A DNA stretch of 12,456 nucleotides, taken from Candidatus Nanohalobium sp. GTDB lineage: Archaea > Nanohalarchaeota > Nanosalinia > Nanosalinales > Nanosalinaceae. The position numbers were made by a program, and so were the translations under genes. The notes under the pieces are model-generated. The model made no database searches, was not told the origin of the DNA, and saw nothing but the letters and a program-made list of their open reading frames with translations. This document shows, piece by piece, positions 2 through 12,455 of the stretch (the first letter of the stretch is position 1; the number at the start of each line of letters is the position of its first letter). The stretch is taken from positions 1 through 12,456 of the forward strand of contig JBDGSM010000070.1 in the NCBI GenBank assembly GCA_042217545.1, in the 5' to 3' direction.

Positions 2-1666
2 GCACTAAGAAAATACGCAGACGAAGAAACAGCCGAAAAATGGGAAATGAGCGTAGAAGACGGAACAGTAGCATTTGGTTCTGCATTGAAGAACTGGGCG
101 ATCTCCATGCCTTACATGCAGGAAACAGGAATCACATTCGGCGACGTAATCGAAAGAGTAAACGAAGGCGACCACGAAGGCCTCAGAGAAGATGCACCGA
201 TCGAAGAAGTCGTACTGGACATGGTAGTGGACCACCTTGTCAACCCACACGAATCCGCTGAATGGAGGATTCCCGCTGTATGGCCTGGCGACGTAGGCTC
301 AGAAGTAGGTCAGGACATGCTTGACCACGACCAGGACGGCCGTCTAGTCGGCGTAGTTACAAATGTAGAGGACGACGAACACGCAGGAACGATCGCTACA
401 GCAAGACTGTTCTCGGGAACCGTGGAGGAAGGAGACGAACTCTACGGAATCGGCTCCCAGAAGACCGAGAGAGCTCAGCAGGTCGGAATTTACTCAGGAC
501 CTAGAAAGCTGACAGTAGATAGCGTTCCCTGCGGAAACATCGTAGCTATCACAGGCCCTGACTTCTCAACAGGAGAGACGTTTATCAGGAAAGGAGAGGA
601 AGAAATAGAACCGTTCGAGCAAATCGAACACGTCTTCGAGCCTGTAGTTACAAAGTCGATCGAGCCCAAGAGGACATCCGACCTTCCAAAGCTCATCGAA
701 GCGCTCAGAAAACGTTCCAAGGAAGACAACACCATCAAAGTCGATATTGACGAGGAAACAGGAGAGACAAAGGTTTCAGGCCTTGGAGAGCTACACATCG
801 AGGCAAAAGTCGAGAGATACCTTGAAGAACAGGGAATCGACATCAATGTCTCCGAGCCTATCGTAGTATTCAGGGAAGGTATCGAGGACGATTCACCGGA
901 AGTCTCCGGCAAGTCCCCTAACAGGCACAACGAGCTTGTCATGTCCGTAGAGCCTCTTCCAGAATCCGTCAGGAAGTTCCTGAAGGAGGACTACCAGGAT
1001 GTCAAGATGCAGGCAAACGAGGACCACGAGATCAAGGAAGCACTTGTAGAAGCAGGCCTTGACAAGGACGAAGCCGACAACGTAATGGAGGCCCACGAGG
1101 AGAACCTATTAATCAACGCTTCCAGAGGTATCAAGAACCTGCGTGAAATCCAGGAATACCTTGTTGACGCGTTCCACGAATTCACGGATGAAGGCCCAAT
1201 GGCAGGAGAGCCAGTTATAGGCCTCAAGGTGAAGCTTCACGACGCAAGCCTGCACGAGGACGCCATCCACAGAGGGCCATCTCAGATGATCCCTACGACG
1301 AAGCAAGCTATGACAAAAGGCTTCCTCCAGTCCACTCCAAGACTGATCGAGCCAAAGCAGAAGCTGAGGATCGACACCCCTACAGACACGATGGGAGATG
1401 CCATGACAGAAGTCTCCAACAGAAGAGGAGACGTCATCGACATGGAAGAGGAAGGAGATTCCTCAGTCATCCAGTGCAAGCTGCCTGTAGAAGAGCTATT
1501 CGGATTTGAAGCCGCTCTGAAGTCCGCAACCAACGGTAAAGGCTTCTTCTCCCTGATCGATATCATCTACGAGCCTCTTCCAATGAACCTTCAGGAGGAG
1601 AAGATCATGGAGATCCGTGAGAGAAAAGGCATGAAGCAGGAGATTCCAAGCCTCGAAGACGAGTAA
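2..1666 (+). CDS. fusA: Translation elongation factor aEF-2, 5'-truncated by the window edge
   Basis: The frame is open from base 2 (ALRKYADEETAEKWEMSVEDGTVAFGSA...), so ATG 47 is internal. EF-2 motifs: ARLFSGT, EPVVTKSIEP, GLGELHIE, SEPIVVFRE, KSPNRHN and the diphthamide loop HEDAIHRGPSQ. Directly upstream of EF-1alpha. Confidence 0.98.
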   Translation, partial: ALRKYADEETAEKWEMSVEDGTVAFGSALKNWAISMPYMQETGITFGDVIERVNEGDHEGLREDAPIEEVVLDMVVDHLVNPHESAEWRIPAVWPGDVGSEVGQDMLDHDQDGRLVGVVTNVEDDEHAGTIATARLFSGTVEEGDELYGIGSQKTERAQQVGIYSGPRKLTVDSVPCGNIVAITGPDFSTGETFIRKGEEEIEPFEQIEHVFEPVVTKSIEPKRTSDLPKLIEALRKRSKEDNTIKVDIDEETGETKVSGLGELHIEAKVERYLEEQGIDINVSEPIVVFREGIEDDSPEVSGKSPNRHNELVMSVEPLPESVRKFLKEDYQDVKMQANEDHEIKEALVEAGLDKDEADNVMEAHEENLLINASRGIKNLREIQEYLVDAFHEFTDEGPMAGEPVIGLKVKLHDASLHEDAIHRGPSQMIPTTKQAMTKGFLQSTPRLIEPKQKLRIDTPTDTMGDAMTEVSNRRGDVIDMEEEGDSSVIQCKLPVEELFGFEAALKSATNGKGFFSLIDIIYEPLPMNLQEEKIMEIRERKGMKQEIPSLEDE

Positions 1667-1681
1667 CAGGCCTTTCACACA

Positions 1682-1712
1682 TATTTTCCTCTTTTCTACT
1701 TTTCCTCTTTAT
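1682..1712 (+). terminator. Pyrimidine/oligo-T tract after fusA, putative archaeal intrinsic terminator
   Basis: TATTTTCCTCTTTTCTACTTTTCCTCTTTAT starts about 15 nt after the stop codon; several T4 runs, typical of archaeal terminators. Confidence 0.55.
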
Positions 1713-1720
1713 ATTCAGAA

Positions 1721-1749
1721 CTCAGGATTTCCTCAGGCCTTTTCTCAGG
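1721..1749 (+). repeat. Three direct CTCAGG repeats at 11-12 bp spacing
   Basis: CTCAGG at 1721, 1732 and 1744, just upstream of the tuf BRE/TATA. Confidence 0.6.
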
Positions 1750-1761
1750 AGTTTGGCTTCA

Positions 1762-1778
1762 CGAAACCCTTTTTAAAG
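1762..1778 (+). promoter_or_regulatory. BRE plus TATA box of the tuf promoter
   Basis: CGAAACCCTTTTTAAAG: purine-rich BRE followed by TTTTTAAA at 1770-1777, about 45 nt upstream of ATG 1823. Confidence 0.7.
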
Positions 1779-1810
1779 TTTAACAGGTAATCCGACTTTA
1801 TACGCAGTTA

Positions 1811-1815
1811 GGTGA
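1811..1815 (+). promoter_or_regulatory. Shine-Dalgarno site of tuf
   Basis: GGTGA ending 7 nt before ATG 1823, matching the archaeal SD core. Confidence 0.7.
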
Positions 1816-1822
1816 ACAAAAA

Positions 1823-3109
1823 ATGGCTGATAAACCACACATTAATCTTGTATTCATTGGACACGTTGACCACGGTAAATCTACTACCATCGGTAGGCTG
1901 CTGTGGGAAACAGAAAACCTTCCAGAAGAAGAAATGAGAAAGCTTGAGGAAGCTGCTGAGGAAGCAGGTAAGGAGTCTTTCAACTTCGCTTTCGCGATGG
2001 ACAATCTAGAGGAAGAGCGTGAGAGAGGAGTTACAATCGACCTGGCTCACCAGGAGTTTGACTCTGAGAATTACTATTTCACGATTATCGACGCTCCAGG
2101 CCACCGTGACTTCATCAAGAACATGATCACGGGAGCTTCTCAGGCTGACGCCGGAGTCCTTGTCGTCGCAGCAGACGACGGAATCCAGCCTCAGACAAAG
2201 GAGCACGCTTACCTCGCTAAGACACTGGGAATCGACCAGCTTGTCGTTGCAGTCAACAAGATGGACCTAGTTGACTACGAAGAAGACGGATTTAATGACA
2301 TCAAGGACGAGGTCTCGCAGATGATCCAGGGAGTCGGTTACGATACTTCCGACATCGACTTCGTACCTATCTCCAGCTTCGACGGCGAAGGAGTAGCAGA
2401 AAGCTCAGACGAGATGGGCTGGTATGACGGACCTTCACTACTTGAAGCACTTGACGACCTAGAAGAACCTGAGAAGGCAATCGATCTACCGACAAGAATC
2501 CCTATCCAGGACGTATACAACATCTCCGGAATCGGAGCTGTAACAGTCGGAAGAGTCGAGACAGGTGAACTCAACACAGGAGACGACGTAGTCTTCGAAC
2601 CAGCATCCACAAGACTGAACAGGAATGTAGGTGGAGAAGTCAAGTCCATCGAGATGCACCACGAAGAAGTAGAAGCAGCAGAGCCTGGTGACAACATCGG
2701 ATGGAACACAAGAGGCGTCGGAGAAGACGACGTCAAGAAGGGCGACGTAGCTGGAACAGCAGACAACCCACCAACAGTTGTCGAAAAGTTCGAAGCACAG
2801 GTCATCGTCCTCAACCACCCAAACGTCATCTCCGAGGGATACACACCAGTATTCCACGTCAACACCGCACAGGTCTCATGCACATTCGAGGACATCAAGT
2901 CCACCATGAACCCAAAGACAGGAGAGACGATCGAAGAAGACCCAGACTACATCAAACAGGGACAGGCAGCAAAAGTCACAATCAGGCCACAGCAGCCACT
3001 CGTCATCGAAGCAAACGACAACATCCCACAGATGTCACGCTTCGCAATCAGAGACATGGGACAGACAGTAGGAGCCGGACAGGCCCTATCCGTCGAAGAG
3101 AAAGAATAA
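1823..3109 (+). CDS. tuf: Translation elongation factor aEF-1alpha
   Basis: GHVDHGKST (G1), [17 protein letters not shown] (G3), NKMD (G4), [28 protein letters not shown]; 428 aa. Confidence 0.99.
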
Positions 3110-3133
3110 ACCAAAAGACCTCAATCTAGGGCC

Positions 3134-3190
3134 TTTATCTCTTTCTTATTTTCCCAACATTTTCTCCACATATTTTTTCAAGCTTTTCTA
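3134..3190 (+). terminator. Oligo-T tract after tuf, putative terminator
   Basis: TTTATCTCTTTCTTATTTTCCC...TATTTTTTCA...CTTTTCT directly after the tuf stop. Confidence 0.6.
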
Positions 3191-3237
3191 CCTCTCAATA
3201 CTGAAGAACTCTCAACCTTTGTGGACCTGAACAAGAC

Positions 3238-3247
3238 TTATTATAAA
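3238..3247 (+). promoter_or_regulatory. TATA box of the PA14-adhesin/pilin operon, probably giving a leaderless transcript
   Basis: TTATTATAAA ends about 20 nt before ATG 3268, preceded by purine-rich GAACAAGA; no SD visible. Confidence 0.6.
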
Positions 3248-3267
3248 CTATCCACAATTGAAGGGTA

Positions 3268-6200
3268 ATGAAAAGCAAAACCGCGTTCAGCGTTCTCCTG
3301 CTAATTCTCTCTGCCTCTCTAACGGCTGCAGCTCCCAGCATTTCTCTCAACGGACCCAGCAACGGCAGTGAAGCAGAAAGCCCTGTCAAATTCCAGTTCA
3401 CACCTCAGTGCAGCTCAAGCTGCAGCTCAGCAACCTTATCTTTCAACACAACAGGAAACCTGACATTCTCACGGACCATAGACAAATGGAAAACGGGCGA
3501 AAAAACCGGGGTAAAGGCCTCAAACAGCAACTTGACACTCTACCGTGAAGGCAGCACAGGAAACCTGAACTACAGATGGTACGATACAGGAAGTTACTAC
3601 AGCAGCAATGGCCATCCATCCAACACCGGGGAGATGAACAGCTTCTTCAACAGTTCAAAAAATGGAGTAAATCTAGGCGGCGAAGGCCTTCACAACGGTA
3701 GTGTAAGCTGGTATGATGGTTCAGACTGGGGCGAGAAACCTGATTATCTGCCAGCACAGGGTTATTCCTGGAAGGCCTCAGGTTATCTTTACGCACCGGA
3801 ATCAGGGGTCTATACGATAGGCCTTGACTCAGATGATGCCTCTGACGTCTTCATCAACGGCAGTAAAGTCGTCTCGTGGTACGGAGGCCACGCAGTTTCC
3901 GGCAGCTACGACCACAGCAACAAAGTATACCTGGATAAAGGCCAGTACACGATCAAGGTAAGGATGGAGGAAGGAGGCGGAGACGACGGCGTCTCAGTTG
4001 CCTGGAAAAAGCCAGGAGAATCCAGCTTCGAACTGATACCTGGTAAAAGATTTTCGAACTCGAGCATGGAGTACAACAGCTCGGGAAGTTACGAGACAGA
4101 GCCTTTCTCACTGAGTAATCCTGCTTACTGGACAGGAAAAAGTTTAGAGGCCTCCATCCCTGCAAACACCAGTCTGGACGTTAACTACGCAAGTAAAAGG
4201 CCTGGTGGCTGGGAATACTTTGAATCTTTAAGCGATGTTTCTCAGACGAGGAAGCTGAAAGTCAACTTCTCTCTTTCCACGGATGAGCCTCTGAAAAGCC
4301 CTGAAGTAAGTTATCTGAACCTTGAGTACAAGATGCCTGCCAACCAAGAGTTCAACTGGATCACAGATTCCGAAAGCGAATGGCAGAAAGGCTCAACGGA
4401 TCTGACCTCTATCGACTCAGGCACCGTCAAGTTGAAGAGGAACAGGTCAGGACCCAACAAAGAATTGAAGTATACCTGGTACAGTACTGAAGGCCTTAAT
4501 GAAAGAAATGGTTATGCTGACAGCGCTGAAGAGATGGATAATTTCTTCAACAGCTCTACAGAAGGAGTAAGCTTCGGCGGTTCCGGCATTCATGCTGAGC
4601 GAGTTCACTGGCACAGCGGCCAGTGGGATGAGAAACCTGCTTATCTTCCCGGAGATCACTATGCTTGGAAGGCCTCAGGATACCTCTACGCACCGAACAC
4701 AGGTACTTATACTATAGGTATTGATTCCGACGATGCCTCTGACGTCTTCATCGACGGTGAGAAAGTTGCCTCGTACTATGGCCCTCACGGGACTTCAGGA
4801 AGTTACGGTCACCAGGGAACGATCACCTTGGAAGAAGGATATCACAGGTTCAAAATCAGGATGCAGGAAGACACAGGCGGAGACGGAGTAAGCATCGCAT
4901 GGGAAAGACCAAACAAAAACAACATGAAAGTGATAAAGAGCAACCGTTTCTCTCGCAGACTGTACCAGCAATCAGGGAACTACACATCCAAAACCTTCTC
5001 CACGAAAAGAGAAGTTAAATGGGAAAAAGCCAGTGTAAAGGCCTCAACAGGAACAGATACAGACTACAGTATAGAGTACGGATACAACACGAGCGGGAGC
5101 TGGACCTACGTAAATTCAATAAGCTCAGTGCCCGAGACACGATTCCTGAAGTACAGGCTAGAGCTCAGCACTGCAGACGGAGAAAAGTCTCCTTCAGTCG
5201 ACAAAGTTAACCTGACCTATTCGAACTCTAAGGCCTCCTTCCAGGAGATGAAAACAGTAACAGATGTTCAGAGCGGTGTAGTGAATAATTTGAGCTTTGA
5301 TTTCTCAAGTTACTCCCTTCCAACTAACTTTCTGTGGAATATACAGGTCAAGCAGAGCGATGGCAGCACAAATATCTCAAAAAGTAGAGAGGTCAATGTA
5401 AGGCCTCATAGTTTCGCCTCACCAGACATAAAGTGGTCTGAACCTGAGGACGGGACTTCTAACAGGACGCCGATAAACTTCAGCTTCACACCGAAATGCT
5501 ACAGCGAGTACGGCTGCTACGAGGTAAGCCTCTATTTCAACAGCACAGGAGAGAAAGGAAGCTGGATCTTCAACCAGGATAATGACTGGAGCAGAGGCAG
5601 TCTATCCAATACTACTTTCGAAAGTGGTAAAGTGAAGCTTGAAGGAGAAGTTGGCGAGCAAGGGAAGCTGAGATACCGTTGGTACGACACTGAAGGCCTT
5701 AACCAGGACAACAGCTACGGCGACAGCAAAAAAGATATGGACAAGTTCTTCAACACCAAGATCGAAGGTGTAAGCCTTGAAGGCTCCGGAGAATACTCCA
5801 GAGAAGTCGACTGGAAGAACAACGAGTGGGATCCGAAGCCATCCTACCTGCCAGGAGATCATTACTCATGGAAGGCCTCAGGATACATCTACGCACCGAA
5901 CACAGGCACCTACAAATTCGGAATAGACTCCGATGACGCCTCAGACCTCTTCATCAACGGAGAAATGGTAACCTCCTACTATGGAGGACACGGAGATTCA
6001 GGTGACTACAGTCACAGCGGTACTGTGGAGCTCTCCGAAGGCTACCACACGTTAAAGGTCAGGATGCAGGAAGACACGGGAGGAGACGGAGTAAGCATCG
6101 CATGGGAAAGACCAAACAAAAACAACATGAAGGTGATACCTTCAAACAGGTTCTTCCTTAAAGATACAGAAAGCTCAGGAACTTATACGTCTCCAGTACT

Positions 6201-6843
6201 CAGCACAGGCAAGAAAGTAGATATTACAAAGGCCTCCATCGATAAAGATGTTCCTACAGGCACAGGCCTTGATCTGAAGTATCTTGAGAACACTTCAGGG
6301 GCCTGGAAGGTCTTCCCGGATCTTTCAAGTCTTCCACAGTCAAAGTACTTCAGGTTTAGAGCTGAGATGTCCTCGGGTTCGGAGAAGACACCTGCGCTCA
6401 GAAAGGTGAACCTCAGTTACGTCGATCATGAAATCTTCAAGAAACGTTTGAGCAAGAAAGACGTCTTTAACGGGACTTCAGGCGAGTTCAGTCTCCGGTT
6501 CCTTGACTATAGTCTGCCACAGACGTTCAAGACTGTACTGAGTGTGAAGCAGAGCGACGGACAGGTCACGAAGACAGATCCGAGGACAATAAAAGTCAAG
6601 TTCAGCGGAATCAAAGCCGAGATCTCCTGGAACGACAAGGCCTCAAACGAAATCGGCTACAAAATCTATACTAATGCCTCAGGTTCCTGGAACAAGGTAG
6701 GAGAAGTAGAGAGAAATACTGAAAGTTTCCAGGACCGCAATCCTAACATAAAGGATGGAGACTACGTATGTTACAGGGTTAAGGCCTTTAACACGGCAGG
6801 AGCTTCAGCTCCAGTAGAAGGGTGTGCAACATTCACGAGATGA
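3268..6843 (+). CDS. Large secreted surface glycoprotein, putative adhesin: three PA14 domains, Ig-like domains and a C-terminal FN3-like domain
   Basis: Sec-type signal peptide MKSKTAFSVLLLILSASLTAA. Three repeats with the PA14 signature (Y.WKASGY.YAP..G.Y..G.DSDDASD.FI.G...V..Y..H...G...L..G.H...VRM.E..G.DG..AW..P). The C-terminus ISWNDKASNEIGYKIY...FQD...YRVKAFNTAGAS is FN3-like. About 26 N-X-S/T sequons by manual count. No C-terminal membrane anchor. Confidence 0.85.
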   Translation: MKSKTAFSVLLLILSASLTAAAPSISLNGPSNGSEAESPVKFQFTPQCSSSCSSATLSFNTTGNLTFSRTIDKWKTGEKTGVKASNSNLTLYREGSTGNLNYRWYDTGSYYSSNGHPSNTGEMNSFFNSSKNGVNLGGEGLHNGSVSWYDGSDWGEKPDYLPAQGYSWKASGYLYAPESGVYTIGLDSDDASDVFINGSKVVSWYGGHAVSGSYDHSNKVYLDKGQYTIKVRMEEGGGDDGVSVAWKKPGESSFELIPGKRFSNSSMEYNSSGSYETEPFSLSNPAYWTGKSLEASIPANTSLDVNYASKRPGGWEYFESLSDVSQTRKLKVNFSLSTDEPLKSPEVSYLNLEYKMPANQEFNWITDSESEWQKGSTDLTSIDSGTVKLKRNRSGPNKELKYTWYSTEGLNERNGYADSAEEMDNFFNSSTEGVSFGGSGIHAERVHWHSGQWDEKPAYLPGDHYAWKASGYLYAPNTGTYTIGIDSDDASDVFIDGEKVASYYGPHGTSGSYGHQGTITLEEGYHRFKIRMQEDTGGDGVSIAWERPNKNNMKVIKSNRFSRRLYQQSGNYTSKTFSTKREVKWEKASVKASTGTDTDYSIEYGYNTSGSWTYVNSISSVPETRFLKYRLELSTADGEKSPSVDKVNLTYSNSKASFQEMKTVTDVQSGVVNNLSFDFSSYSLPTNFLWNIQVKQSDGSTNISKSREVNVRPHSFASPDIKWSEPEDGTSNRTPINFSFTPKCYSEYGCYEVSLYFNSTGEKGSWIFNQDNDWSRGSLSNTTFESGKVKLEGEVGEQGKLRYRWYDTEGLNQDNSYGDSKKDMDKFFNTKIEGVSLEGSGEYSREVDWKNNEWDPKPSYLPGDHYSWKASGYIYAPNTGTYKFGIDSDDASDLFINGEMVTSYYGGHGDSGDYSHSGTVELSEGYHTLKVRMQEDTGGDGVSIAWERPNKNNMKVIPSNRFFLKDTESSGTYTSPVLSTGKKVDITKASIDKDVPTGTGLDLKYLENTSGAWKVFPDLSSLPQSKYFRFRAEMSSGSEKTPALRKVNLSYVDHEIFKKRLSKKDVFNGTSGEFSLRFLDYSLPQTFKTVLSVKQSDGQVTKTDPRTIKVKFSGIKAEISWNDKASNEIGYKIYTNASGSWNKVGEVERNTESFQDRNPNIKDGDYVCYRVKAFNTAGASAPVEGCATFTR
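3565..4056 (+). repeat. PA14 domain copy 1
   Basis: LNYRWYDTG...GLDSDDASDVFING...RMEEGGGDDGVSVAWKKP...IPGKRFS. Confidence 0.8.
4465..4953 (+). repeat. PA14 domain copy 2
   Basis: LKYTWYSTEG...GIDSDDASDVFIDG...RMQEDTGGDGVSIAWERP...IKSNRFS. Confidence 0.8.
5668..6156 (+). repeat. PA14 domain copy 3
   Basis: LRYRWYDTEG...GIDSDDASDLFING...RMQEDTGGDGVSIAWERP...IPSNRFF. Confidence 0.8.
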
Positions 6844-7328: not shown

Positions 7329-7351
7329 ACAGTCGAAGGCCTTAATTATCA

Positions 7352-7358: not shown

Positions 7359-7382
7359 GATTTAACTCCGAACCTGTTTTGT

Positions 7383-7691: not shown

Positions 7692-7718
7692 AGGCCTTAC
7701 GAGGAAAAAACCTGTCCT

Positions 7719-7728
7719 AATTTAAAAA
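7719..7728 (+). promoter_or_regulatory. Candidate TATA box for the hairpin plus tRNA-Ser transcript
   Basis: AATTTAAAAA is the only TATA-like element between rpsJ and the tRNA, about 100 nt upstream of the mature tRNA 5' end. Confidence 0.4.
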
Positions 7729-7761
7729 TTCTACAGGCTACTTTTTCTATACAGATTTGAC

Positions 7762-7819
7762 GTACAGTTGACAACGAGAGATGGGTCAAACGGCCCATCC
7801 AGTGCTGCCAACTGTTACA
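7762..7819 (+). ncRNA. Candidate structured RNA (two-stem hairpin) upstream of tRNA-Ser
   Basis: Outer stem ACAGTTGACA 7764-7773 pairs with TGCCAACTGT 7806-7815 (9 of 10). A 6x6 internal loop follows, then inner stem GATGGGTC 7780-7787 with GGCCCATC 7792-7799 (one G-U) and loop AAAC. ACA at 7817-7819. Confidence 0.4.
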
Positions 7820-7826
7820 ACTTTGT

Positions 7827-7916
7827 GCCGGGGTGACTGAGTCTGGCTAAAAGTGCCAGCCTGGAAAGCTGGTGGGCCATATCCGGCCCTCATGGGTTCA
7901 AATCCCATCCCCGGCG
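7827..7916 (+). tRNA. tRNA-Ser (anticodon GGA), intronless, CCA not encoded
   Basis: Acceptor stem GCCGGGG/CCCCGGC with discriminator G. Anticodon arm CCAGC-CTGGAAA-GCTGG (GGA at 7863-7865). Long variable arm GGGCC-ATATCC-GGCCC. T-arm ATGGG-TTCAAAT-CCCAT. Conserved position after S10 in archaeal str clusters. Confidence 0.97.
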
Positions 7917-7925
7917 AACCTACAT

Positions 7926-8273
7926 TTACCTATCTACTGACTGAGAGATCAGAAGTTCTCTCCTGACCAGGTATGTTTCGCGGTAGATCGATGCTATGTA
8001 TGTTAGGCCCGAGTAGAGGGCCAGGAGGATTGTAATCCCTACGTAAGATGATATTCTGGCGATTATATCCATTCTGAGGGCGAATGTTGCTGCGAAGGAC
8101 GTTATTATGCCCGCGTAGAGAAGTATCTTTACTATAAGTTGAGCTGTTTTAGCCGTCCTGTATTTCTTGACTGCCTGTCTGTATTCCCCCCGGTCATGAG
8201 TTTTGAACTGCTCTATTTCCTCGCTGAGGATCTTATCTGCTCTTCCGAGAGGTGTGAATTTGGAAAGGCTCAT
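7926..8273 (-). CDS. Small hypothetical membrane protein (2 predicted TM helices)
   Basis: 115-aa ORF filling the gap between the tRNA and htrA. Hydrophobic segments LIVKILLYAGIITSFAATFAL and ISSYVGITILLALYSGLTYIASIY. TATA-like GTTAAAA on the minus strand at 8299-8305. Confidence 0.75.
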   Translation of the reverse strand: MSLSKFTPLGRADKILSEEIEQFKTHDRGEYRQAVKKYRTAKTAQLIVKILLYAGIITSFAATFALRMDIIARISSYVGITILLALYSGLTYIASIYRETYLVRRELLISQSVDR

Positions 8274-8327
8274 ATGTTGGATATTGTACCATTAGAGGTT
8301 TTAACTTTGCGTAGGACAGGTTCCAGA

Positions 8328-8335
8328 TATTTAAG
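8328..8335 (+). promoter_or_regulatory. TATA box of htrA, probably giving a leaderless transcript
   Basis: TATTTAAG ends about 22 nt before ATG 8358. Confidence 0.55.
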
Positions 8336-8357
8336 ATTCTACGATCATTACAGTAGT

Positions 8358-9488
8358 ATGAATCTAGGCAGGAAGATCGACCTTTTCGGCGTTATCGCCG
8401 TCCTGCTTTTCGGGGCGGTTCTTGGAGGAGCTTTAACGTTCCAGAACATGAATTCCCGGCTTAACAGCCTGGAAAGCCAGGTATCGAACCCCGGCGGGAA
8501 TGTCACCACCAGGCTCGTATACGTGAATACTACAAACAGCGGCTTACCTGAACTCTACGATATGCTGGACCAATCCGTCGTCTCTGTAACTTCCTACGGT
8601 GCCCAGTCCGCCCAGGGATCAGGTTTCATCTACAGCAAGAAAGGATACATAGTTACTAACAACCATGTCGTCGACGGTGCGAACCACGTAGAGGTCACCT
8701 TCACCGATGGCACAACAGTTAACGCGGACATCGTCGGTACAGATCCATACACAGATCTTGCAGTACTCAAGGTCAGCAAGAAAGGCCTCGATCCGGTAGA
8801 TCTTGGGAACTCCACCAAAGTCGAGGTAGGGCAGGAAGCGATAGCGATCGGCAATCCTTTCGGCCTGAAAAGCTCAATGACCAGCGGGATAATTTCCGCG
8901 AAAGGAAGAACCATCCGGGCACAACAGGGCTTCTCGATGCCGAACATCCTCCAAACCGATGCACCCATCAACCCTGGAAACTCCGGAGGCCCTCTCCTCA
9001 ACAAGTACGGAAAAGTAGTCGGCGTCAACACGGCGATCGACACGCAGACAGGAACGTTTTCCGGCGTGGGATTCGCTATTCCTGCCAACACCGTAAGACG
9101 TGTAGTACCGGAAATTATCTCCCATGGAGACTACAATCATCCCTACATAGGTGTCAGAGGCCTCAACGTAGGACCTGACATCGCGGAAAAGATGAATCTG
9201 AATAAGGCCTCAGGATTCCTCATCACTGAAGTACCTAACGGCACAGCAGCCGACGAGGCAGGTCTCAGAGGAGGACAGTACGAGGACACCATCCAGGGAA
9301 GAAAGATCGGCCTTGGAGGAGACGTAATAGTAGGTATCAACGGCACCAAAGTAAGAAGCCTCCAGGACGTGCTGACTTACCTGGCTAGAGAGGCAGAAGT
9401 AGGCGATACGATAACTATCACAGTCATCCGGGATGGCAAACGTAAAACATTCAACTTGAAGCTCCGTTCAAGGCCTGAAGCCAATTAG
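8358..9488 (+). CDS. htrA: Membrane-anchored HtrA/DegP-family serine protease with one PDZ domain (376 aa)
   Basis: Start reassigned from 8139 to ATG 8358 (MNLGRKIDLFGVIAVLLFGAVLGGAL, TM anchor), which removes the overlap with the divergent gene. Catalytic triad in TNNHVV, DLAVL and QTDAPINPGNSGGPL; PDZ signatures YIGV, AADEAGL and GGDVIVGING. Confidence 0.95.
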   Translation: MNLGRKIDLFGVIAVLLFGAVLGGALTFQNMNSRLNSLESQVSNPGGNVTTRLVYVNTTNSGLPELYDMLDQSVVSVTSYGAQSAQGSGFIYSKKGYIVTNNHVVDGANHVEVTFTDGTTVNADIVGTDPYTDLAVLKVSKKGLDPVDLGNSTKVEVGQEAIAIGNPFGLKSSMTSGIISAKGRTIRAQQGFSMPNILQTDAPINPGNSGGPLLNKYGKVVGVNTAIDTQTGTFSGVGFAIPANTVRRVVPEIISHGDYNHPYIGVRGLNVGPDIAEKMNLNKASGFLITEVPNGTAADEAGLRGGQYEDTIQGRKIGLGGDVIVGINGTKVRSLQDVLTYLAREAEVGDTITITVIRDGKRKTFNLKLRSRPEAN

Positions 9489-10471
9489 GGCCTGTATCTG
9501 AGGAAGGCCGCAAGGCCTCCAAAGTTTTCTATTCTTTCACCTGCTTCGTGGTCTGTATGGAGGATTATTACTTCTCCGCCCTGTCTCTCGACCATTTTAG
9601 GGACTTCAGGCATCTCTCTTCTCTTCTCCGCCGTTATCAACAGTTTTTCGACCGCTCCAATTTCCGCCTGTTCCTCAACTTTTTCCCCGTAATCTACAAG
9701 TCCGTCTTCCCTGAGTGCGTCAAGGAACTTTTCGACTTCCTGTGTCTCCTCGGATATACGTGAGCTCTCCTCTACTTTCTTCAGTGCTCCACGTTTGATA
9801 GCTTCGTGAAGGCCTGTCTTTCCAGTCACTGAAGTGTCCTGGAGGAAGATTTTTTCCTTTAAATCTTCTGAGAGCTCATTGTAGACCTTATTTTTCTCGT
9901 GGCCCGGCCCGGCAAGGATTACCTTGTCCATGTCTTTTGCTGAGCGTTTGAGGACCTTGTTTACCTGATTGTAGAAGTCCTTACCTGATTTCTGGTCTGG
10001 ATACATCTTCCCGGGGATGTTCTCAGCGACATCGGATAGGTCTTTGATACCTGACTCCTCCACGACGTAGAGGTTGGCTTCTCCTTTCTCTACTAGGCAG
10101 AAAAGAACTTTGTAGGCCTCGTTTTGCTCTGCTTCCATGAGACGTTCCCATTCCTCCTCTGTAAACTTTTTCCAGAGCTCGAACTCTTTCTCTGGTTCGA
10201 GGTTGAATGTGTGGTAGCCAAGTTCCACATCGTCGACTGCTTCCGTGATCTCTCCGGTGACCCTGAGCCGGTCCTGCTGATACTCAGTTTTTTCGACGCG
10301 GATCGTGAGGGTGCATGTCTTCTTCTCCCGGCCGTCGAGCTTGGTTCTCTGCGTCAGGGCCCGTGCATGGTCGCCTTCAGCGATCAGGTCTTTCATATAC
10401 CAGAGATCATCCCTGTTTTCCAGGGCTATCTTGGCATATCCGTCTTCCTTACTGCTTTTGATTATCTCCAT
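9485..10471 (-). CDS. pelA: Pelota (Dom34) ribosome-rescue factor, eRF1-like (328 aa)
   Basis: Start reassigned to ATG 10471 (MEIIKSS). Pelota motifs DDLWY, RLRVTG, LGYHTFNL, IPGK, ILAGPG, GLHEAIKR and GERIENFGGLAAFLRY; no GGQ or NIKS, so not aRF1. Overlaps the htrA 3' end by 4 nt (convergent). Confidence 0.93.
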   Translation of the reverse strand: MEIIKSSKEDGYAKIALENRDDLWYMKDLIAEGDHARALTQRTKLDGREKKTCTLTIRVEKTEYQQDRLRVTGEITEAVDDVELGYHTFNLEPEKEFELWKKFTEEEWERLMEAEQNEAYKVLFCLVEKGEANLYVVEESGIKDLSDVAENIPGKMYPDQKSGKDFYNQVNKVLKRSAKDMDKVILAGPGHEKNKVYNELSEDLKEKIFLQDTSVTGKTGLHEAIKRGALKKVEESSRISEETQEVEKFLDALREDGLVDYGEKVEEQAEIGAVEKLLITAEKRREMPEVPKMVERQGGEVIILHTDHEAGERIENFGGLAAFLRYRP

Positions 10472-10490
10472 ACAAAGGAAAAGGCCTCTT

Positions 10491-10501
10491 ACAAATAAAA
10501 A
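10491..10501. promoter_or_regulatory. AT-rich element centred in the 52-bp divergent gap; possible shared bidirectional TATA
   Basis: ACAAATAAAAA lies about 20-30 nt from both ATG 10471 (-) and ATG 10524 (+). Confidence 0.4.
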
Positions 10502-10523
10502 CCCCCAAACGAAAAACTGAACC

Positions 10524-11666
10524 ATGGAGCAAGGTTTCGCCGTAGTTCTAGTCGCAGGCCTCGCAGTTTTCGGCCTGATGTTCCTGGCAGGCCAGTCCAA
10601 CTTCACGCCTCAGCAGCCTGTACAGGGGAATAGAGTAGTTCTGGCCGAGAAAAATGTCGGCACTGTCGGCGGAGCCAGAACCGATATAAGAAATATCTCA
10701 TTCAGAAGCTTTACTGTCGGCGAAACAAGAGGTGATATCCAGGCCTACACCGAGGACCAGGAACAGATCTCAAGCAGCCTCTTCTCCGGCGACTCCATAG
10801 ATGTGAAGTATAACGCAACTCAGCCCGAAGGCGGCCAGGTAAGCTTTGAAGTCCTGGGACGGACAGGCAAAGGAAAGATCTGGGTGAACGTCAACGGTAA
10901 AGATGTCTTCAAGGCCGCCACGGTAACAGGAGCGACACCGAAGATCAACTTTTCAGGTAAAAACCTTCATCCGGGAATGAATGACATCAGGATAGGTACG
11001 ACCAGCGGAGGATGGTTCAGCTCGGCCAGTTACACACTGGAAGAAGTGGAGGTAACTGTCAACGATCGGAAGTTCCATGACTACCAGACCTCCTTCAAAC
11101 TATACAACCATGAACTCAATAATTACGCAGGAAGCAACCTGACATTTACAATACCCATGGATGCCTCAAGGCCTGACGCACCGTTAAAGATCGATGTAAA
11201 CGGACATCAGGTATTCTCCGACAAGCTTGTAAGATCGACTCAGGAGATCAAGGTAGGCAAGAGGGAGGCAGACCTGACACCAGGTTACAATACTATAGAC
11301 TTTGACACCAACGGCGATTCAATGTACCACGTTCAGGACCCTGAAATCGTGATGCAGTACCTCGGTACTACGAGGCCTGGTACTCTAAGGCTCGACTTCA
11401 AGGCCACGCCCGGACAGCTTGCATACGCCAAGGATGGAGCTACGAAGGAGATAATCAGCTTCGATTATCAGAACAATCTTCCTTCAGATCATCCCCTTGA
11501 CATATCCTTGAACGGGAATAAATACCGCGTATCTCCTTTGAACGGAAAGAATACTGTTGATATAAAGGCCTCAGATCTTAAAGAGGACAACACGTTGACA
11601 ATAAACAGCGATGGATCATTTAACATGCAAAACCTCCAAGTAGTTTCTGAGAAGGTGAAAGAATAG
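10524..11666 (+). CDS. Hypothetical N-terminally anchored extracellular beta-rich protein with three internal repeats
   Basis: N-terminal hydrophobic helix GFAVVLVAGLAVFGLMFLAG. Repeats: KIWVNVNG..VF...NLHPGMNDIRI, PLKIDVNG..VF...DLTPGYNTIDF and PLDISLNG......DLKEDNTLTI. Several N-glycosylation sequons. Confidence 0.8.
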   Translation: MEQGFAVVLVAGLAVFGLMFLAGQSNFTPQQPVQGNRVVLAEKNVGTVGGARTDIRNISFRSFTVGETRGDIQAYTEDQEQISSSLFSGDSIDVKYNATQPEGGQVSFEVLGRTGKGKIWVNVNGKDVFKAATVTGATPKINFSGKNLHPGMNDIRIGTTSGGWFSSASYTLEEVEVTVNDRKFHDYQTSFKLYNHELNNYAGSNLTFTIPMDASRPDAPLKIDVNGHQVFSDKLVRSTQEIKVGKREADLTPGYNTIDFDTNGDSMYHVQDPEIVMQYLGTTRPGTLRLDFKATPGQLAYAKDGATKEIISFDYQNNLPSDHPLDISLNGNKYRVSPLNGKNTVDIKASDLKEDNTLTINSDGSFNMQNLQVVSEKVKE

Positions 11667-12455
11667 ATGAGCGACGACGACGGCGGAGGAATGGTCGGCA
11701 AACTCCTAAAATGGGGTATACTACTATTCCTGTTCGGCATCTTCCCTCCGCTGTTCTTCGTATGGATTGGATGGAAGTACGTCAAGATGTGCGTACTGTT
11801 CTACTTCAAGATGCTTTACCTCATCATAAGATTCCCAATATGGCTATTCATCCAGCTACCACTGTACTACATAGGCGTAGGAGTGCACACCATCTCCAAC
11901 GCATTCAGCAAGGCCTACGGCGTAATGGTCGCAAAGAAGAAAAGATACGGCCTCTTATTTGGAATACTGCTACTGTTCACCATAAGAACATTCCTTCCGC
12001 ACAACACGGACGCGATGGTGTCCTTCCTTACAAGTGCAACACTAATACTACCGCTGGTATTCTTCATACCGTTCTTTTTCACATTCCTGGTTGCAGCCAT
12101 ATCCGCACACTTCAGGATGCCAGATATTGCAAGAAAAGAGATGCCGGGCGGCATGAACACAGGAATGAAGAGGAGAACAGGACAGGCAGCGAGAGCAGCC
12201 GCATCAGCAGGAGCAATGGGCGTAAAGGCCTACAAGAACAAAGAAGAAATAAAAGCAGCTAAAGGAACTGCAGAAGACCTGGCAAGTGGCGCAATGGATA
12301 CCGCTGAAGCAGCAGCTGGAGAGGGCGCACTCGCAGGAGACATGGTATCCGTCCTGGAGGGAATGCCTATGCTCGGAACAATGGTGGAAGGCGGAGGCGT
12401 CGCAGCAGGTTCAGCAGCAACAATTGCCGGGATGACTGGTGGAACAGCAATACTC
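11667..12455 (+). CDS. Hypothetical polytopic membrane protein with an Ala/Gly-rich region, 3'-truncated (absent from the ORF track)
   Basis: ATG 11667 directly follows TAG 11666. Manual translation stays open to the window end: MSDDDGGGMVGKLLKWGILLFLFGIFPPLFFVWIGWKYVKMCVLFYFKMLYLIIRFPIWLFIQLPLYYIGVG...KKKRYGLLFGILLLFTIRTF...LILPLVFFIPFFFTFLVAAISAHF...GQAARAAASAGAMG...GGGVAAGSAATIAGMTGGTAIL. Confidence 0.85.
   Translation, partial: MSDDDGGGMVGKLLKWGILLFLFGIFPPLFFVWIGWKYVKMCVLFYFKMLYLIIRFPIWLFIQLPLYYIGVGVHTISNAFSKAYGVMVAKKKRYGLLFGILLLFTIRTFLPHNTDAMVSFLTSATLILPLVFFIPFFFTFLVAAISAHFRMPDIARKEMPGGMNTGMKRRTGQAARAAASAGAMGVKAYKNKEEIKAAKGTAEDLASGAMDTAEAAAGEGALAGDMVSVLEGMPMLGTMVEGGGVAAGSAATIAGMTGGTAIL

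What the first reader, a model, noticed from the sequence alone, without database searches (positions are those of the whole stretch)
178..12231. HIP1-like highly iterated palindrome AGGCCT, about 13-fold over random expectation
Seen: 40 exact AGGCCT in 12,456 bp by manual count; a random hexamer would occur about 3 times. It makes up roughly half of all GGCC in the window, while the same-composition palindrome TGGCCA was found once. It occurs in all three codon phases (xxA-GGC-CTx Gly-Leu, xAG-GCC-Txx Lys/Glu/Gln-Ala-Ser/Tyr/Phe, AGG-CCT Arg-Pro) and in genes on both strands. All 4 Gly-Leu pairs in EF-2, all 5 Gly-Leu pairs in the adhesin and 7 of its 8 Lys-Ala-Ser triplets are encoded so as to spell it. 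Established: cyanobacterial HIP1 (GCGATCGC) behaves this way and has been linked to cognate DNA methyltransferases, whereas restriction-site palindromes are usually depleted. Inference: a DNA-level system creates or keeps AGGCCT, for example methylation-directed repair by an orphan GGCC/AGGCCT methylase, a chromatin or segregation protein site, or a self/uptake tag. I do not know of this being described for this lineage but cannot check.
Basis: partly seen in the sequence, partly recalled or inferred. Interest (0 to 1): 0.82.

Follow-up and report, generated by a model that had tools for sequence, protein, structure and literature searches.

The report
Hyper-abundant AGGCCT palindrome in nanohaloarchaea
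This tiny salt-loving archaeon writes the six-letter palindrome AGGCCT about once every 280 bases, in genes and spacers alike and even at the cost of changing its proteins; the word is likely a stop signal for a DNA-end-trimming enzyme (AddAB) and would then spread by repair, a kind of signal not described in archaea.

Summary
The window has 40 AGGCCT (shuffles give 3.4, at most 8). The whole 1.03 Mb genome has 3,699, 15 times expectation and far ahead of any other hexamer. Density is similar in coding and intergenic DNA. Of the peptide contexts that can spell the word, 61-75% do, against 8-12% in a poor relative, and those peptides are 1.5-2.1 times commoner, so the proteome has been reshaped. 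The trait is on or off: 12 rich genomes and one intermediate among 50 of the family (4 of 21 genera), and none of 20 in four sister families.

No DNA methyltransferase family and no Vsr is shared by the rich genomes.

The only correlate I found is an AddAB-type helicase-nuclease. It is present in all 13 rich or intermediate genomes and was not found in 21 of 37 poor ones. Its N-terminal motifs are invariant in rich lineages and mostly degenerate in poor ones, with one clear exception (G005). I therefore favour a palindromic Chi-like signal spread by biased repair, at about 45%. Biochemistry is lacking.

This scan has reported the same phenomenon before, on other windows of this genome and on other genomes. 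I found no paper describing it.

The parts
178..12231 (.). Span holding the 40 AGGCCT sites of the window (mean spacing about 310 bp). The sites are palindromic, so they have no strand.
   Evidence: 40 sites; shuffles mean 3.37, max 8
178..183 (.). AGGCCT in EF-2, codons E-G-L (xxA-GGC-CTx)
778..783 (.). AGGCCT in EF-2, S-G-L
1054..1059 (.). AGGCCT in EF-2, A-G-L
1219..1224 (.). AGGCCT in EF-2, I-G-L
1668..1673 (.). AGGCCT, intergenic, just after the EF-2 stop
1735..1740 (.). AGGCCT, intergenic, between EF-2 and EF-1alpha
3515..3520 (.). AGGCCT in PA14 protein, K-A-S (xAG-GCC-Txx)
3684..3689 (.). AGGCCT in PA14 protein, E-G-L
3773..3778 (.). AGGCCT in PA14 protein, K-A-S
3819..3824 (.). AGGCCT in PA14 protein, I-G-L
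4148..4153 (.). AGGCCT in PA14 protein, E-A-S
4198..4203 (.). AGGCCT in PA14 protein, R-P (AGG-CCT)
4491..4496 (.). AGGCCT in PA14 protein, E-G-L
4670..4675 (.). AGGCCT in PA14 protein, K-A-S
5039..5044 (.). AGGCCT in PA14 protein, K-A-S
5231..5236 (.). AGGCCT in PA14 protein, K-A-S
5401..5406 (.). AGGCCT in PA14 protein, R-P
5694..5699 (.). AGGCCT in PA14 protein, E-G-L
5873..5878 (.). AGGCCT in PA14 protein, K-A-S
6230..6235 (.). AGGCCT in PA14 protein, K-A-S
6264..6269 (.). AGGCCT in PA14 protein, T-G-L
6638..6643 (.). AGGCCT in PA14 protein, K-A-S
6782..6787 (.). AGGCCT in PA14 protein, K-A-F
7337..7342 (.). AGGCCT, intergenic, upstream of S10
7692..7697 (.). AGGCCT, intergenic, just after the S10 stop
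8783..8788 (.). AGGCCT in HtrA-like protease, K-G-L
9158..9163 (.). AGGCCT in HtrA-like protease, R-G-L
9205..9210 (.). AGGCCT in HtrA-like protease, K-A-S
9471..9476 (.). AGGCCT in HtrA-like protease, R-P
9513..9518 (.). AGGCCT in minus-strand eRF1-fold gene, G-G-L
9810..9815 (.). AGGCCT in minus-strand eRF1-fold gene, T-G-L
10114..10119 (.). AGGCCT in minus-strand eRF1-fold gene, E-A-Y
10482..10487 (.). AGGCCT in minus-strand eRF1-fold gene, R-G-L
10556..10561 (.). AGGCCT where the ORF calls of the eRF1-fold gene (R-P) and ORF380 (A-G-L) overlap
10741..10746 (.). AGGCCT in ORF380, Q-A-Y
11169..11174 (.). AGGCCT in ORF380, R-P
11373..11378 (.). AGGCCT in ORF380, R-P
11566..11571 (.). AGGCCT in ORF380, K-A-S
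11911..11916 (.). AGGCCT in ORF263, K-A-Y
12226..12231 (.). AGGCCT in ORF263, K-A-Y

Best explanation
AGGCCT is a genome-wide DNA-level signal of some nanohaloarchaea, and it is likely a palindromic Chi-like site: a word that would tell the AddAB-type helicase-nuclease encoded elsewhere in the genome (G000:C17:39063-44359, outside this window) to stop degrading a broken DNA end.

Shown:
- The word is hyper-abundant in coding and intergenic DNA.
- It fills most of the peptide contexts that allow it.
- It has shifted protein composition.
- It avoids close neighbours of its own kind.
- It is missing from rRNA and from islands that look recently acquired.
- Across relatives it is on or off, and it co-occurs with AddAB.

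Inferred:
- AddB's inactivated-helicase domain would recognise the word on single-stranded DNA.
- A broken copy lacking the word at a given place would be chewed past that place and recopied from an intact template. A copy carrying it would protect itself. Repair would therefore convert absent to present more often than the reverse (biased gene conversion).
- This would work between genome copies or between cells.
- A palindrome works from either side of a break, which would double the bias.
- Lineages that lost AddAB, or whose AddB recognition motifs decayed, would lose the drive, and the word would fade to background.
For: 1. It is a DNA-level signal.
- 3,699 copies, 15.2 times expectation.
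- Synonymous shuffling gives 589 +/- 23 against 3,088 observed.
- Intergenic O/E is 34 and 27 against coding 18 in G003 and G001.
- Occupancy of compatible peptides is 0.61-0.83 in the rich genomes G000, G001 and G003, against 0.08-0.12 in the poor G011. Those peptides are also 1.5-2.1 times commoner.

2. It co-occurs with AddAB.
- AddB-like was found in 13 of 13 rich or intermediate genomes and in 16 of 37 poor ones. No AddB-lacking genome (0 of 21) is rich.
- In genus g2 the two rich species have addB and addA. No addB was found in the four poor ones and no full-length addA: only a weak 150-residue hit in G048. Yet a conserved 864-aa marker of G003 is 88% identical in poor G047 and 85% in rich G046.

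3. The protein really is AddB-like.
- The model has pLDDT 85.
- The best five solved matches are all Bacillus subtilis AddB chains: Foldseek E 3.5e-11 to 5.6e-10; VIA-align Z 17.2-17.8, 642-662 residues aligned, rmsd about 12.
- The N-terminal half matches UvrD/PcrA cores (Z 16.8, 312 aligned, rmsd 4.6). The C-terminal half matches Cas4-type nucleases.
- The partner is a UvrD helicase with a C-terminal PD-(D/E)XK domain.

4. The N-terminal motifs track the trait.
- The residues are G-x-F45-A-x-T-P-x-R51-[LY] and Y211-Q212 (G000 numbering).
- F45+R51+Q212 are present in 11 of 11 full-length AddB of rich genomes, which form 3 separate clades on the AddB tree.
- They are present in 1 of 13 AddB of poor genomes. 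There R51 has become I, H, Q, K or E in at least 4 separate clades.
- In B. subtilis AddB, motif Ia/Ib/II-like residues (D41, Q42, T44, F68, R70, W73, F210) are the ones needed for Chi recognition (PMC3321194, passages read).
- The AddB N-terminal domain is relatively better conserved between rich genera: the ratio of N-terminal to C-terminal identity is 0.99, against 0.89-0.90 for other pairs.

5. Islands that look foreign are poor in the word, for example the G003 type I restriction-modification island at 669-686 kb.
Against: - AddAB is not sufficient. 16 of 37 poor genomes carry AddB-like, and at least 13 of these are full length.
- G005 has the complete 'rich' signature and an apparently full-length AddA, yet only 341 sites in about 0.8 Mb, and its own addAB locus is poor.
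- The poor relative G011 has full-length AddAB and no stand-out oligomer at all (top z about 20, against 156-172).
- Most of about 73 AddB-like homologues elsewhere, mostly in haloarchaea, sit in AGGCCT-depleted DNA.
- The statistics are weak once kinship is counted. By genus-level groups, 4 of 14 with AddB are rich against 0 of 12 without (one-sided Fisher about 0.07, my arithmetic).
- A permutation over sets of four genera ranks the rich set only 52nd of 495 for shared private residues. The signature residues were chosen after looking.
- Known Chi sites are asymmetric, oriented with replication and only modestly over-represented (recalled knowledge). This word is a perfect palindrome with no flank skew along the chromosome: 1,633 against 1,614 and 1,450 against 1,375. 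It is near saturation.
- The equivalence of F45/R51/Y211 with B. subtilis F68/R70/F210 rests on fold, predicted secondary-structure order and my recall of helicase motifs. There is no residue-level alignment: no PDB hit by sequence and hhalign was uninformative.
- The correlation would also arise if AddAB merely supplies the recombination that some other sequence-specific factor needs.
- Nothing here shows that AddAB responds to AGGCCT.
Confidence: 0.45

Rival explanations
1. A HIP-type palindrome made by an unidentified sequence-specific repair or modification factor. Something other than AddAB would recognise AGGCCT or near-AGGCCT heteroduplexes and resolve mismatches towards the word. AddAB would matter only because it supplies the recombination that creates heteroduplex DNA.
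For: - A contiguous 6-bp palindrome is the typical target of restriction-modification-like dimers rather than of a single-strand reader (established knowledge).
- In G003 the 1-nt variants at the outer positions are raised (GGGCCT 3.15, CGGCCT 1.63, TGGCCT 1.54) while some inner ones are lowered (AGACCT 0.71, AGCCCT 0.49). In G011 the values are 0.69-0.99 and 1.05-1.42. This is the pattern Elhai reports for HIP1 (PMC4390886, abstract read).
- AddAB is not sufficient, so a second factor is needed anyway.
- Some relatives strongly avoid the word (55-97 copies per Mb). This suggests that enzymes specific for AGGCCT circulate in this community.
Against: - No DNA methyltransferase family and no Vsr is shared by the rich genomes.
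- Among 66 genes shared by G000 and G003 and missing from G011, the DNA-related or unknown ones I could test are not confined to rich genomes: Rad50-like, NreA, three unknowns.
- No rich-specific gene sits beside addAB.
- In G000 and G001 the outer/inner asymmetry of variants is weak.
- Differences between G000 and G001 at sites are ordinary transitions spread over all positions.
Confidence: 0.25
2. A selected binding site for an abundant chromosome-organising, segregation or chromatin protein. Each site would be kept by selection for genome-wide coverage.
For: - Spacing is more even than random. Gaps of 20 bp or less number 110 against 227 expected. Gaps over 500 bp number 483 against 560 in G003, and 307 against 399 in G001.
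- Occupancy falls to 0.25-0.41 when another copy lies 6-12 bp away and to about 0.5-0.66 at 12-30 bp, as a protein footprint would give.
- HIP1 has been argued to be selected and linked to nucleoid structure (PMC5861425, abstract read).
Against: - Selection on about 4,000 individually dispensable sites, strong enough to change amino acids, is hard to sustain in a small-genome symbiont (inference).
- The apparent 'conservation' of sites (84-88% when the amino acids are identical) equals plain occupancy (0.7-0.8). It needs no site-by-site selection.
- No rich-specific DNA-binding protein was found.
- It does not explain the link with AddAB.
Confidence: 0.12
3. A DNA-uptake or kin-recognition tag of the USS/DUS kind. 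Cells would preferentially take up or keep DNA carrying the word, and recombination would then spread it.
For: - Like USS/DUS, the word is frequent, lies in genes, biases peptides and is more evenly spaced than chance (the USS/DUS properties are recalled).
- The AddB-bearing loci of haloarchaea, the group that hosts nanohaloarchaea (PMC11001535, abstract), are poor in it: 66 of 73 loci have O/E below 1. The word therefore separates symbiont DNA from such DNA by more than tenfold.
Against: - Known uptake signals are 9-12 nt and not palindromic (recalled).
- I did not search for competence genes.
- No evidence of natural transformation in this group was seen in the papers I searched.
Confidence: 0.1
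4. One reading: an orphan GGCC/AGGCCT cytosine methylase with methylation-directed very-short-patch repair creates the word.
For: By analogy with cyanobacterial HIPs, where a cognate methyltransferase accompanies each HIP (PMC4390886, abstract).
Against: - PF00145 was found in 0 of 4 (G000-G003) and 1 of 5 further rich genomes.
- PF01555 gave only sub-threshold housekeeping-like hits, except in G042.
- PF02384 was strong only in G003 and G042, and the G003 gene has no G000 homologue.
- PF02086 and Vsr were found in 0 of 5.
- C-to-T variants are not singled out at sites that differ between G000 and G001.
Confidence: 0.05
5. A by-product of codon, dipeptide or base composition.
For: The maximal-order Markov O/E is only 1.11.
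Against: - That model borrows the signal from the pentamers: 80% of AGGCC are followed by T.
- The word is as dense or denser in intergenic DNA.
- All three codon phases are used.
- The excess over synonymous shuffling is 5.2-fold.
- Relatives with about 59% identical proteins have the word at background level.
Confidence: 0.01

Closest known systems
HIP1 (GCGATCGC) and the alternate highly iterated palindromes of cyanobacteria (Elhai 2015, PMC4390886; Xu, Lawrence and Durand 2018, PMC5861425; abstracts read)
   Same: - A short GC-rich palindrome, 15- to 20-fold over-represented.
- Present in genes in all frames and between genes.
- Present or absent between related lineages.
- Shared at orthologous places far above background.
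- In G003, variants are biased to the outer positions.
   Different: - It is in an archaeon.
- It has six letters, not eight.
- It is denser, at 1 per 250-280 bp.
- No cognate methyltransferase accompanies it.
- Copies repel each other at short range.
- Its presence tracks an AddAB helicase-nuclease.
- The 10-90 kb periodicity reported for HIP1 was not tested.
Chi sites with AddAB of Bacillus subtilis and RecBCD of E. coli (Saikrishnan et al. 2012, PMC3321194, passages read)
   Same: - An over-represented short word in a genome that encodes a two-subunit helicase-nuclease.
- The AddB-like subunit has the fold of B. subtilis AddB.
- Residues in the helicase-like N-terminal domain are conserved exactly where the word is abundant.
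   Different: - The word is palindromic and has no polarity.
- It is near saturation, and it reshapes proteins.
- The enzyme is only 10-12% identical to B. subtilis AddB.
- Many genomes carry the enzyme without the word.
- No biochemistry exists.
- I found no archaeal Chi in print (search 81, listing only).
DNA uptake sequences (USS of Pasteurellaceae, DUS of Neisseriaceae); properties recalled, no paper read here
   Same: - A molecular-drive type of accumulation.
- The sequences lie in coding regions and bias peptides.
- Spacing is more even than random.
   Different: - Known uptake sequences are longer and not palindromic.
- They are tied to competence machinery, which I did not look for.
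Very-short-patch repair (Dcm/Vsr) shaping CCWGG frequency in E. coli; recalled
   Same: A sequence-specific repair bias that raises the frequency of a palindromic word.
   Different: - The effect there is small.
- It needs a methylase and Vsr. Neither a shared DNA methylase nor Vsr was found in the rich genomes searched.

Membership tests
Highly iterated palindromes (HIP) of cyanobacteria | Short palindrome at least about 15-fold over-represented genome-wide | tested here: met
   O/E is 15.2 (G000), 19.6 (G001 part) and 19.6 (G003).
Highly iterated palindromes (HIP) of cyanobacteria | Found in coding DNA in all frames and in intergenic DNA | tested here: met
   Phases 574/1048/1466; coding 3.48 against intergenic 3.86 per kb.
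Highly iterated palindromes (HIP) of cyanobacteria | A DNA methyltransferase specific for the palindrome or its core is present when the HIP is abundant (Elhai 2015) | tested here: not met
   No family is shared by the rich genomes: PF00145 in 1 of 9, PF01555 strong in 1 of 9, PF02384 strong in 2 of 5, PF02086 in 0 of 5. Divergent or unknown enzymes cannot be excluded.
Highly iterated palindromes (HIP) of cyanobacteria | 1-nt deviations biased to the first and last positions | tested here: inconclusive
   Clear in G003 (outer 1.5-3.2, inner 0.5-1.4). Weak in G000 and G001.
Highly iterated palindromes (HIP) of cyanobacteria | Sites conserved between genomes above background | tested here: met
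   64.9% against 19.8% (G000-G001) and 42.2% against 12.6% (G000-G003); rank 1 of 1,228 and 1 of 1,081 hexamers. This equals occupancy, so it does not show site-wise selection.
Highly iterated palindromes (HIP) of cyanobacteria | Chromosomal periodicity of 10-90 kb (Xu et al. 2018) | not tested
   Only gap statistics were computed.
Chi site of an AddAB/RecBCD helicase-nuclease | The genome encodes an AddAB- or RecBCD-type enzyme | tested here: met
   G000:C17:39063-44359. AddA-like is UvrD plus PD-(D/E)XK; AddB-like has the AddB fold. Found in 13 of 13 rich or intermediate genomes.
Chi site of an AddAB/RecBCD helicase-nuclease | The word is over-represented relative to composition | tested here: met
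Chi site of an AddAB/RecBCD helicase-nuclease | The word is asymmetric and preferentially oriented with replication | tested here: not met
   A perfect palindrome. Flanking 7-mers are equal on both strands along the chromosome (1,633 against 1,614; 1,450 against 1,375).
Chi site of an AddAB/RecBCD helicase-nuclease | Presence of the word follows the state of the enzyme's recognition locus | tested here: inconclusive
   F45+R51+Q212 in 11 of 11 rich against 1 of 13 poor AddB. The residues were chosen post hoc, the permutation rank is 52 of 495, G005 is an exception, and the mapping onto the B. subtilis Chi locus is inferred.
Chi site of an AddAB/RecBCD helicase-nuclease | The enzyme's nuclease is attenuated at the word in vitro or in vivo | not testable with these tools
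   Needs biochemistry or genetics.
DNA uptake sequences (USS/DUS) | Competence machinery with a receptor specific for the word | not tested
   No search was made for competence genes.
Restriction-modification target (StuI-type AGGCCT) | Cognate methylase and endonuclease present; the word is usually avoided | tested here: not met
   The word is enriched, not avoided, and no shared methylase was found. Avoidance is seen instead in relatives G029, G052 and G036 (55, 73 and 97 copies).

The most novel reading that the evidence does not exclude
AGGCCT is the first Chi site of an archaeon, and the first palindromic, self-spreading one. It is read by an AddAB of a family shared with the haloarchaea that host these symbionts. 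Because haloarchaeal DNA is depleted in the word while symbiont DNA is saturated with it, it doubles as a self mark. That mark lets the symbiont's nuclease destroy host or viral DNA, perhaps for nucleotide salvage, while sparing its own chromosome.
Probability: 0.3. Interest if true: 0.9.

Novelty: new variant of a known kind. Interest (0 to 1): 0.8.

Why it matters
Hyper-abundant palindromes such as HIP1 have been known for some thirty years without an agreed cause. This system is simpler in several ways:
- The genomes are about 1 Mb.
- The word has only six letters.
- No methylase clouds the picture.
- Related genomes have the trait either fully on or fully off, and some relatives of this group are kept in laboratory co-culture.

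That makes the cause testable by comparative genomics and by one biochemical assay. If AddAB reads the word, it would be the first recombination hotspot signal in archaea. It would also be a clear case of a repair enzyme driving genome-wide sequence and protein composition. In practice, the word is a strong marker for binning these genomes and for spotting recently acquired DNA.

Tried and rejected
**Tests that proved uninformative**
- The maximal-order Markov model gives O/E 1.11, but it is uninformative because the pentamers carry the signal.
- B. subtilis AddB could not be reached by sequence (phmmer and profile against the PDB). hhalign of the AddB N-terminus against AddA gave probability 1.2%. 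No residue-level map onto the known Chi locus was therefore obtained.

**Enzyme families not shared by the rich genomes**
- Methyltransferases PF00145, PF01555, PF02384 and PF02086, and Vsr PF03852.
- The weak N6_Mtase hits on large ORFs of G001 and G003 have no homologue in G000.

**Gene-content subtraction (G000 and G003 yes, G011 no)**
- It gave 66 candidates, and 59 G003 orthologues were annotated.
- Rad50-like with Mre11-like: rejected, because it is missing from the rich genera g20 and g26.
- NreA: rejected, because it is present in 5 of 5 genomes tested, three of them poor.
- Unknown proteins of 247, 284 and 196 aa: rejected.
- The remaining candidates were not tested across genomes.

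**Other negative checks**
- Neighbours of addAB: no gene is shared by the 7 rich loci and absent from the 6 poor ones; the best is 4 of 7.
- Mis-binning of addAB contigs in poor genomes: rejected, since their loci are themselves poor.
- Replication- or strand-linked asymmetry of flanks: none.
- Rich-specific AddB residues tested by permutation over four-genus sets: not significant, rank 52 of 495.

**Not completed**
- A species tree could not be built. The marker loci could not be cut out, so only identities to G003 were used.
- The two markers disagree on how close the poor g2 species are to G003. NreA is 72% identical for G047 and 94% for G046. The 864-aa marker is 88% and 85%.

**Literature**
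- No paper holds AGGCCT together with Nanohaloarchaea.
- Nothing relevant appeared under 'highly iterated palindrome' with archaea, AddAB with Nanohaloarchaeota (one paper on Cas4 phylogenomics, passages read), AGGCCT with archaea and genome, or Chi site with archaea and AddAB.
- The methylome paper on Ca. Nanohalococcus occultus (PMC11001535, abstract and passages read) reports only GDGcHC methylation in that symbiont and never mentions AGGCCT. I do not know whether that strain is rich in the word.

Full report
**The observation**

The window holds 40 exact AGGCCT at the stated places. 200 dinucleotide-preserving shuffles give 3.37 +/- 1.80 and never more than 8.
- 40 of the 79 GGCC lie inside the word, and TGGCCA occurs once.
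- All three codon phases, both gene orientations and four intergenic places are used.

**It is a property of the genome**

The window is G000:C68 of a 1,032,751-base, 82-contig assembly.
- Genome-wide there are 3,699 copies, one per 279 bp and 15.2 times the order-0 expectation. The next hexamers are its own shifted overlaps (7.6 times), and the next palindrome reaches 2.3 times.
- 58% of all GGCC and 49% of all AGGC belong to the word. Other NGGCCN are at or below expectation. Flanks are weak: A or G before, rarely T.
- Every contig carries 1.3-5.9 per kb.
- The pentamer-based Markov model gives O/E 1.11. This only reflects that 80% of AGGCC are followed by T.
- With my own ORF calls (1,100 ORFs, 86% of the DNA), density is 3.48 per kb in coding DNA and 3.86 in intergenic DNA. 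Shuffling synonymous codons within genes gives 589 +/- 23 against 3,088 observed.
- In the two relatives with single-contig genomes, the intergenic excess is larger than the coding one: O/E 34 and 27 against 18.

**How far it goes**

I fetched a second rich genus (G003, whole), a poor genus (G011, whole) and 780 kb of a congener (G001).

Share of peptide contexts that can spell the word and do so:

| Genome | X-Gly-Leu | [KEQ]-Ala-[CFLSWY] | Arg-Pro |
|---|---|---|---|
| G000 (rich) | 0.71 | 0.61 | 0.75 |
| G001 part (rich) | 0.78 | 0.68 | 0.79 |
| G003 (rich) | 0.71 | 0.72 | 0.83 |
| G011 (poor) | 0.08 | 0.09 | 0.12 |

- The peptides themselves are commoner in the rich genomes. For example [KEQ]-A-[CFLSWY] occurs 5.7-6.0 times per 1,000 aa against 2.7, and Arg-Pro 2.5 against 1.3. 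A DNA word has reshaped the proteome.
- Sites are shared at orthologous places far above background: 64.9% against 19.8% for G000-G001, and 42.2% against 12.6% for G000-G003. The word ranks first of more than 1,000 hexamers in both comparisons.
- Given identical amino acids, 88% and 84% of sites are shared. These values equal the occupancy, so they show saturation. They do not show site-by-site selection or common descent.
- Against G011 only 2.7% are shared.
- rRNA genes carry few copies, 0-1.4 per kb.

**Spacing**

- Copies repel each other at short range. Occupancy of a compatible context is 0.25-0.41 when another copy lies 6-12 bp away, 0.5-0.66 at 12-30 bp, and about 0.75 beyond 45 bp.
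- Gaps of 20 bp or less are half as frequent as an exponential predicts. Gaps of 500-750 bp are also too few.
- The excess of very long gaps in G003 comes from a few islands. One carries a type I restriction-modification system that G000 and G011 lack.
- There is no polarity. The preferred 7-mers are equally frequent on both strands all along the chromosomes.
- Flank preference differs between genera.

**Distribution among relatives**

Titles of related records name these organisms Nanohaloarchaea, as the earlier notes of this scan did.
- Of 50 genomes in 21 genera of the family, 12 are rich: 1,481-4,489 copies, 4.3 to 17 times the reversed control word. One is intermediate (G023: 762 copies, 5 times the control).
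- These are all 3 genomes of g1, all 5 of g20, all 3 of g26, and 2 of 6 of g2. The other 37 are at background or below.
- None of 20 genomes of four sister families is rich.
- The poor relative G011 has no stand-out oligomer of any kind: top z about 20 against 156-172.
- The three genera I hold are about equally distant, with median protein identity 59-61%.

**Methylation**

- C5 methylase PF00145 is absent from G000-G003 and present in only 1 of 5 further rich genomes.
- PF01555 is strong only in G042.
- PF02384 is strong only in G003 and G042. The G003 gene, and the weak-hit large ORFs of G001 and G003, have no homologue in G000.
- PF02086 and Vsr were found in none of 5.

**Search for a determinant**

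Subtracting G011 from the genes shared by G000 and G003 left 66 candidates. Those I could test across genomes are not confined to rich ones: Rad50-like, NreA and three unknowns.

Earlier notes of this scan proposed AddAB and a Chi-like role. I tested that lead.
- G000 encodes an AddB-like protein (855 aa) and an AddA-like protein (910 aa) at C17:39063-44359.
- AddA-like is a UvrD helicase with a C-terminal PD-(D/E)XK domain.
- The AddB-like model (pLDDT 85) matches B. subtilis AddB best. The first five Foldseek hits have E 3.5e-11 to 5.6e-10. VIA-align gives Z 17.2-17.8 over 642-662 residues, with rmsd about 12.
- Its N-terminal half matches UvrD/PcrA (Z 16.8, 312 residues, rmsd 4.6). Its C-terminal half matches Cas4-type nucleases.
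- AddB-like is found in 13 of 13 rich or intermediate genomes and in 16 of 37 poor ones. None of the 21 genomes without it is rich.
- In g2 the two rich species have both genes. No addB and no full-length addA was found in the four poor ones, although one conserved marker puts poor G047 as close to G003 as rich G046 (88% and 85%). NreA disagrees: 72% and 94%.

**Limits of that link**

- AddAB is clearly not sufficient. G011, G005, all four g24 genomes and others have full-length genes, and their loci are themselves poor in the word.
- On an AddB tree the rich genomes form three clades interleaved with poor ones: g1+g2; g20 next to g24; g26 next to G005. This needs at least three changes of state.
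- Counted by genus-level groups, the association is 4 of 14 against 0 of 12, about p = 0.07 (my arithmetic).
- No gene next to addAB is specific to rich genomes.

**The recognition domain**

In the N-terminal, helicase-like domain, all 11 full-length AddB of rich genomes keep G-x-F45-A-x-T-P-x-R51-[LY] and Y211-Q212.
- Of the 13 from poor genomes, only G005 keeps F45, R51 and Q212 together. R51 is replaced by I, H, Q, K or E in at least four clades.
- The partial G023 gene has the rich form.
- Among 79 homologues from public records, the four in strongly rich DNA have F, R and Q.
- Of the 73 in DNA with O/E below 3, 58 keep F and R, but 51 have S at position 212 and only 4 have Q. That set may overlap my genome sample, so it is not independent.
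- In B. subtilis AddB, residues of the motif Ia, Ib and II equivalents are required for Chi recognition (PMC3321194).
- By fold and by the order of predicted strands and helices, F45/R51 sit where motif Ib should be and Y211-Q212 just after the motif II strand. This mapping is my inference. Sequence methods could not align the proteins.
- The residues were picked after looking, and a permutation over four-genus sets ranks the rich set 52nd of 495.
- The N-terminal domain is relatively better conserved between rich genera: ratio 0.99 against 0.89-0.90.

**Reading**

- The data establish a DNA-level process strong enough to override codon choice and some amino-acid choice. It is self-limiting at short range, it is missing from islands that look newly acquired, and it is switched on in only some lineages.
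- The only correlate found is an AddAB whose putative recognition motifs are intact exactly where the word abounds.
- A Chi-like word would enjoy a conversion advantage. Copies lacking it are degraded past that place and recopied; copies carrying it protect themselves. A palindrome gains from breaks on either side.
- I rate this at about 45%.
- It leaves three things unexplained: G005, the many AddAB-bearing genomes without any enriched word, and the very short range of the repulsion.
- A second, unidentified sequence-specific factor that merely needs AddAB-dependent recombination is the main rival (about 25%). A selected protein-binding site and an uptake or kin tag follow. The methylase model and compositional artefacts are close to excluded.

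**Novelty**

I found no paper that mentions this word in these archaea, nor any archaeal Chi site (searches; listings, with passages of PMC5704561 and PMC11001535 read). The same phenomenon has already been reported by this scan on other windows of this genome and on other genomes. It is a new variant of known kinds (HIP, Chi), not a member of either as defined.

Noticed in passing
relatives G029, G052, G036 (whole genomes): Some family members strongly avoid AGGCCT: 55, 73 and 97 copies per about 1 Mb, against 344-491 of the reversed control word. This is as if an AGGCCT-specific restriction enzyme acted on them.
   Followed up: no
L198-L265 (loci): Close full-length homologues of the AddB-like protein (33-42% identity) are widespread in haloarchaea, several on plasmids. 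Their 20-kb surroundings are depleted in AGGCCT: 66 of 73 loci have O/E below 1. Most carry S where rich nanohaloarchaea carry Q212.
   Followed up: partly
G003:C1:669000-686000; also 168-174, 837-845 and 1035-1042 kb: Islands with 5 or fewer AGGCCT per 5 kb in an otherwise saturated genome. One holds a type I restriction-modification methylase and specificity subunit that have no homologue in G000 or G011. These are probably recent acquisitions.
   Followed up: partly
L114:3905-4180 (G011): Rfam group I intron hit (58.5 bits) at the 3' end of the 16S rRNA gene of a relative.
   Followed up: no
G011:C1:617776-619350: Three small ORFs (160, 212 and 134 aa) lie between addB and addA in the poor relative G011. 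The two genes abut in G000, G001 and G003.
   Followed up: no
23S rRNA of G001 (positions 814 and 852) and G000: Two AGGCCT 38 nt apart in the 23S rRNA of genus g1, where G003 has TGGCCT/AGGCCC and G011 has TGGTCT/AGGACC. Overall the rRNA genes are poor in the word (0-1.4 per kb).
   Followed up: partly
genome-wide, G000/G001 versus G003: Flank preference differs between genera. Genus g1 favours A-AGGCCT-T (AAGGCCTT, 626 copies in G000). G003 favours G-AGGCCT-C (GAGGCCTC, 690 copies).
   Followed up: partly
relatives G004, G007-G009, G011-G013, G015, G020: Solo PD-(D/E)XK (Cas4-like) proteins of about 220-250 aa occur in nine poor relatives. They were not found in the rich genomes G000-G003.
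   Followed up: no
window 3268-6843: A 1,191-aa protein with three PA14 domains (adhesin-like) carries 17 of the 40 sites, 8 of them in repeated K-A-S contexts.
   Followed up: no
window 9485-10606 (-) and 10524-11666 (+): The ORF calls of the eRF1-fold gene and of ORF380 overlap by 83 bases head to head. One AGGCCT (10556) lies in the overlap. The real starts are probably further in.
   Followed up: no
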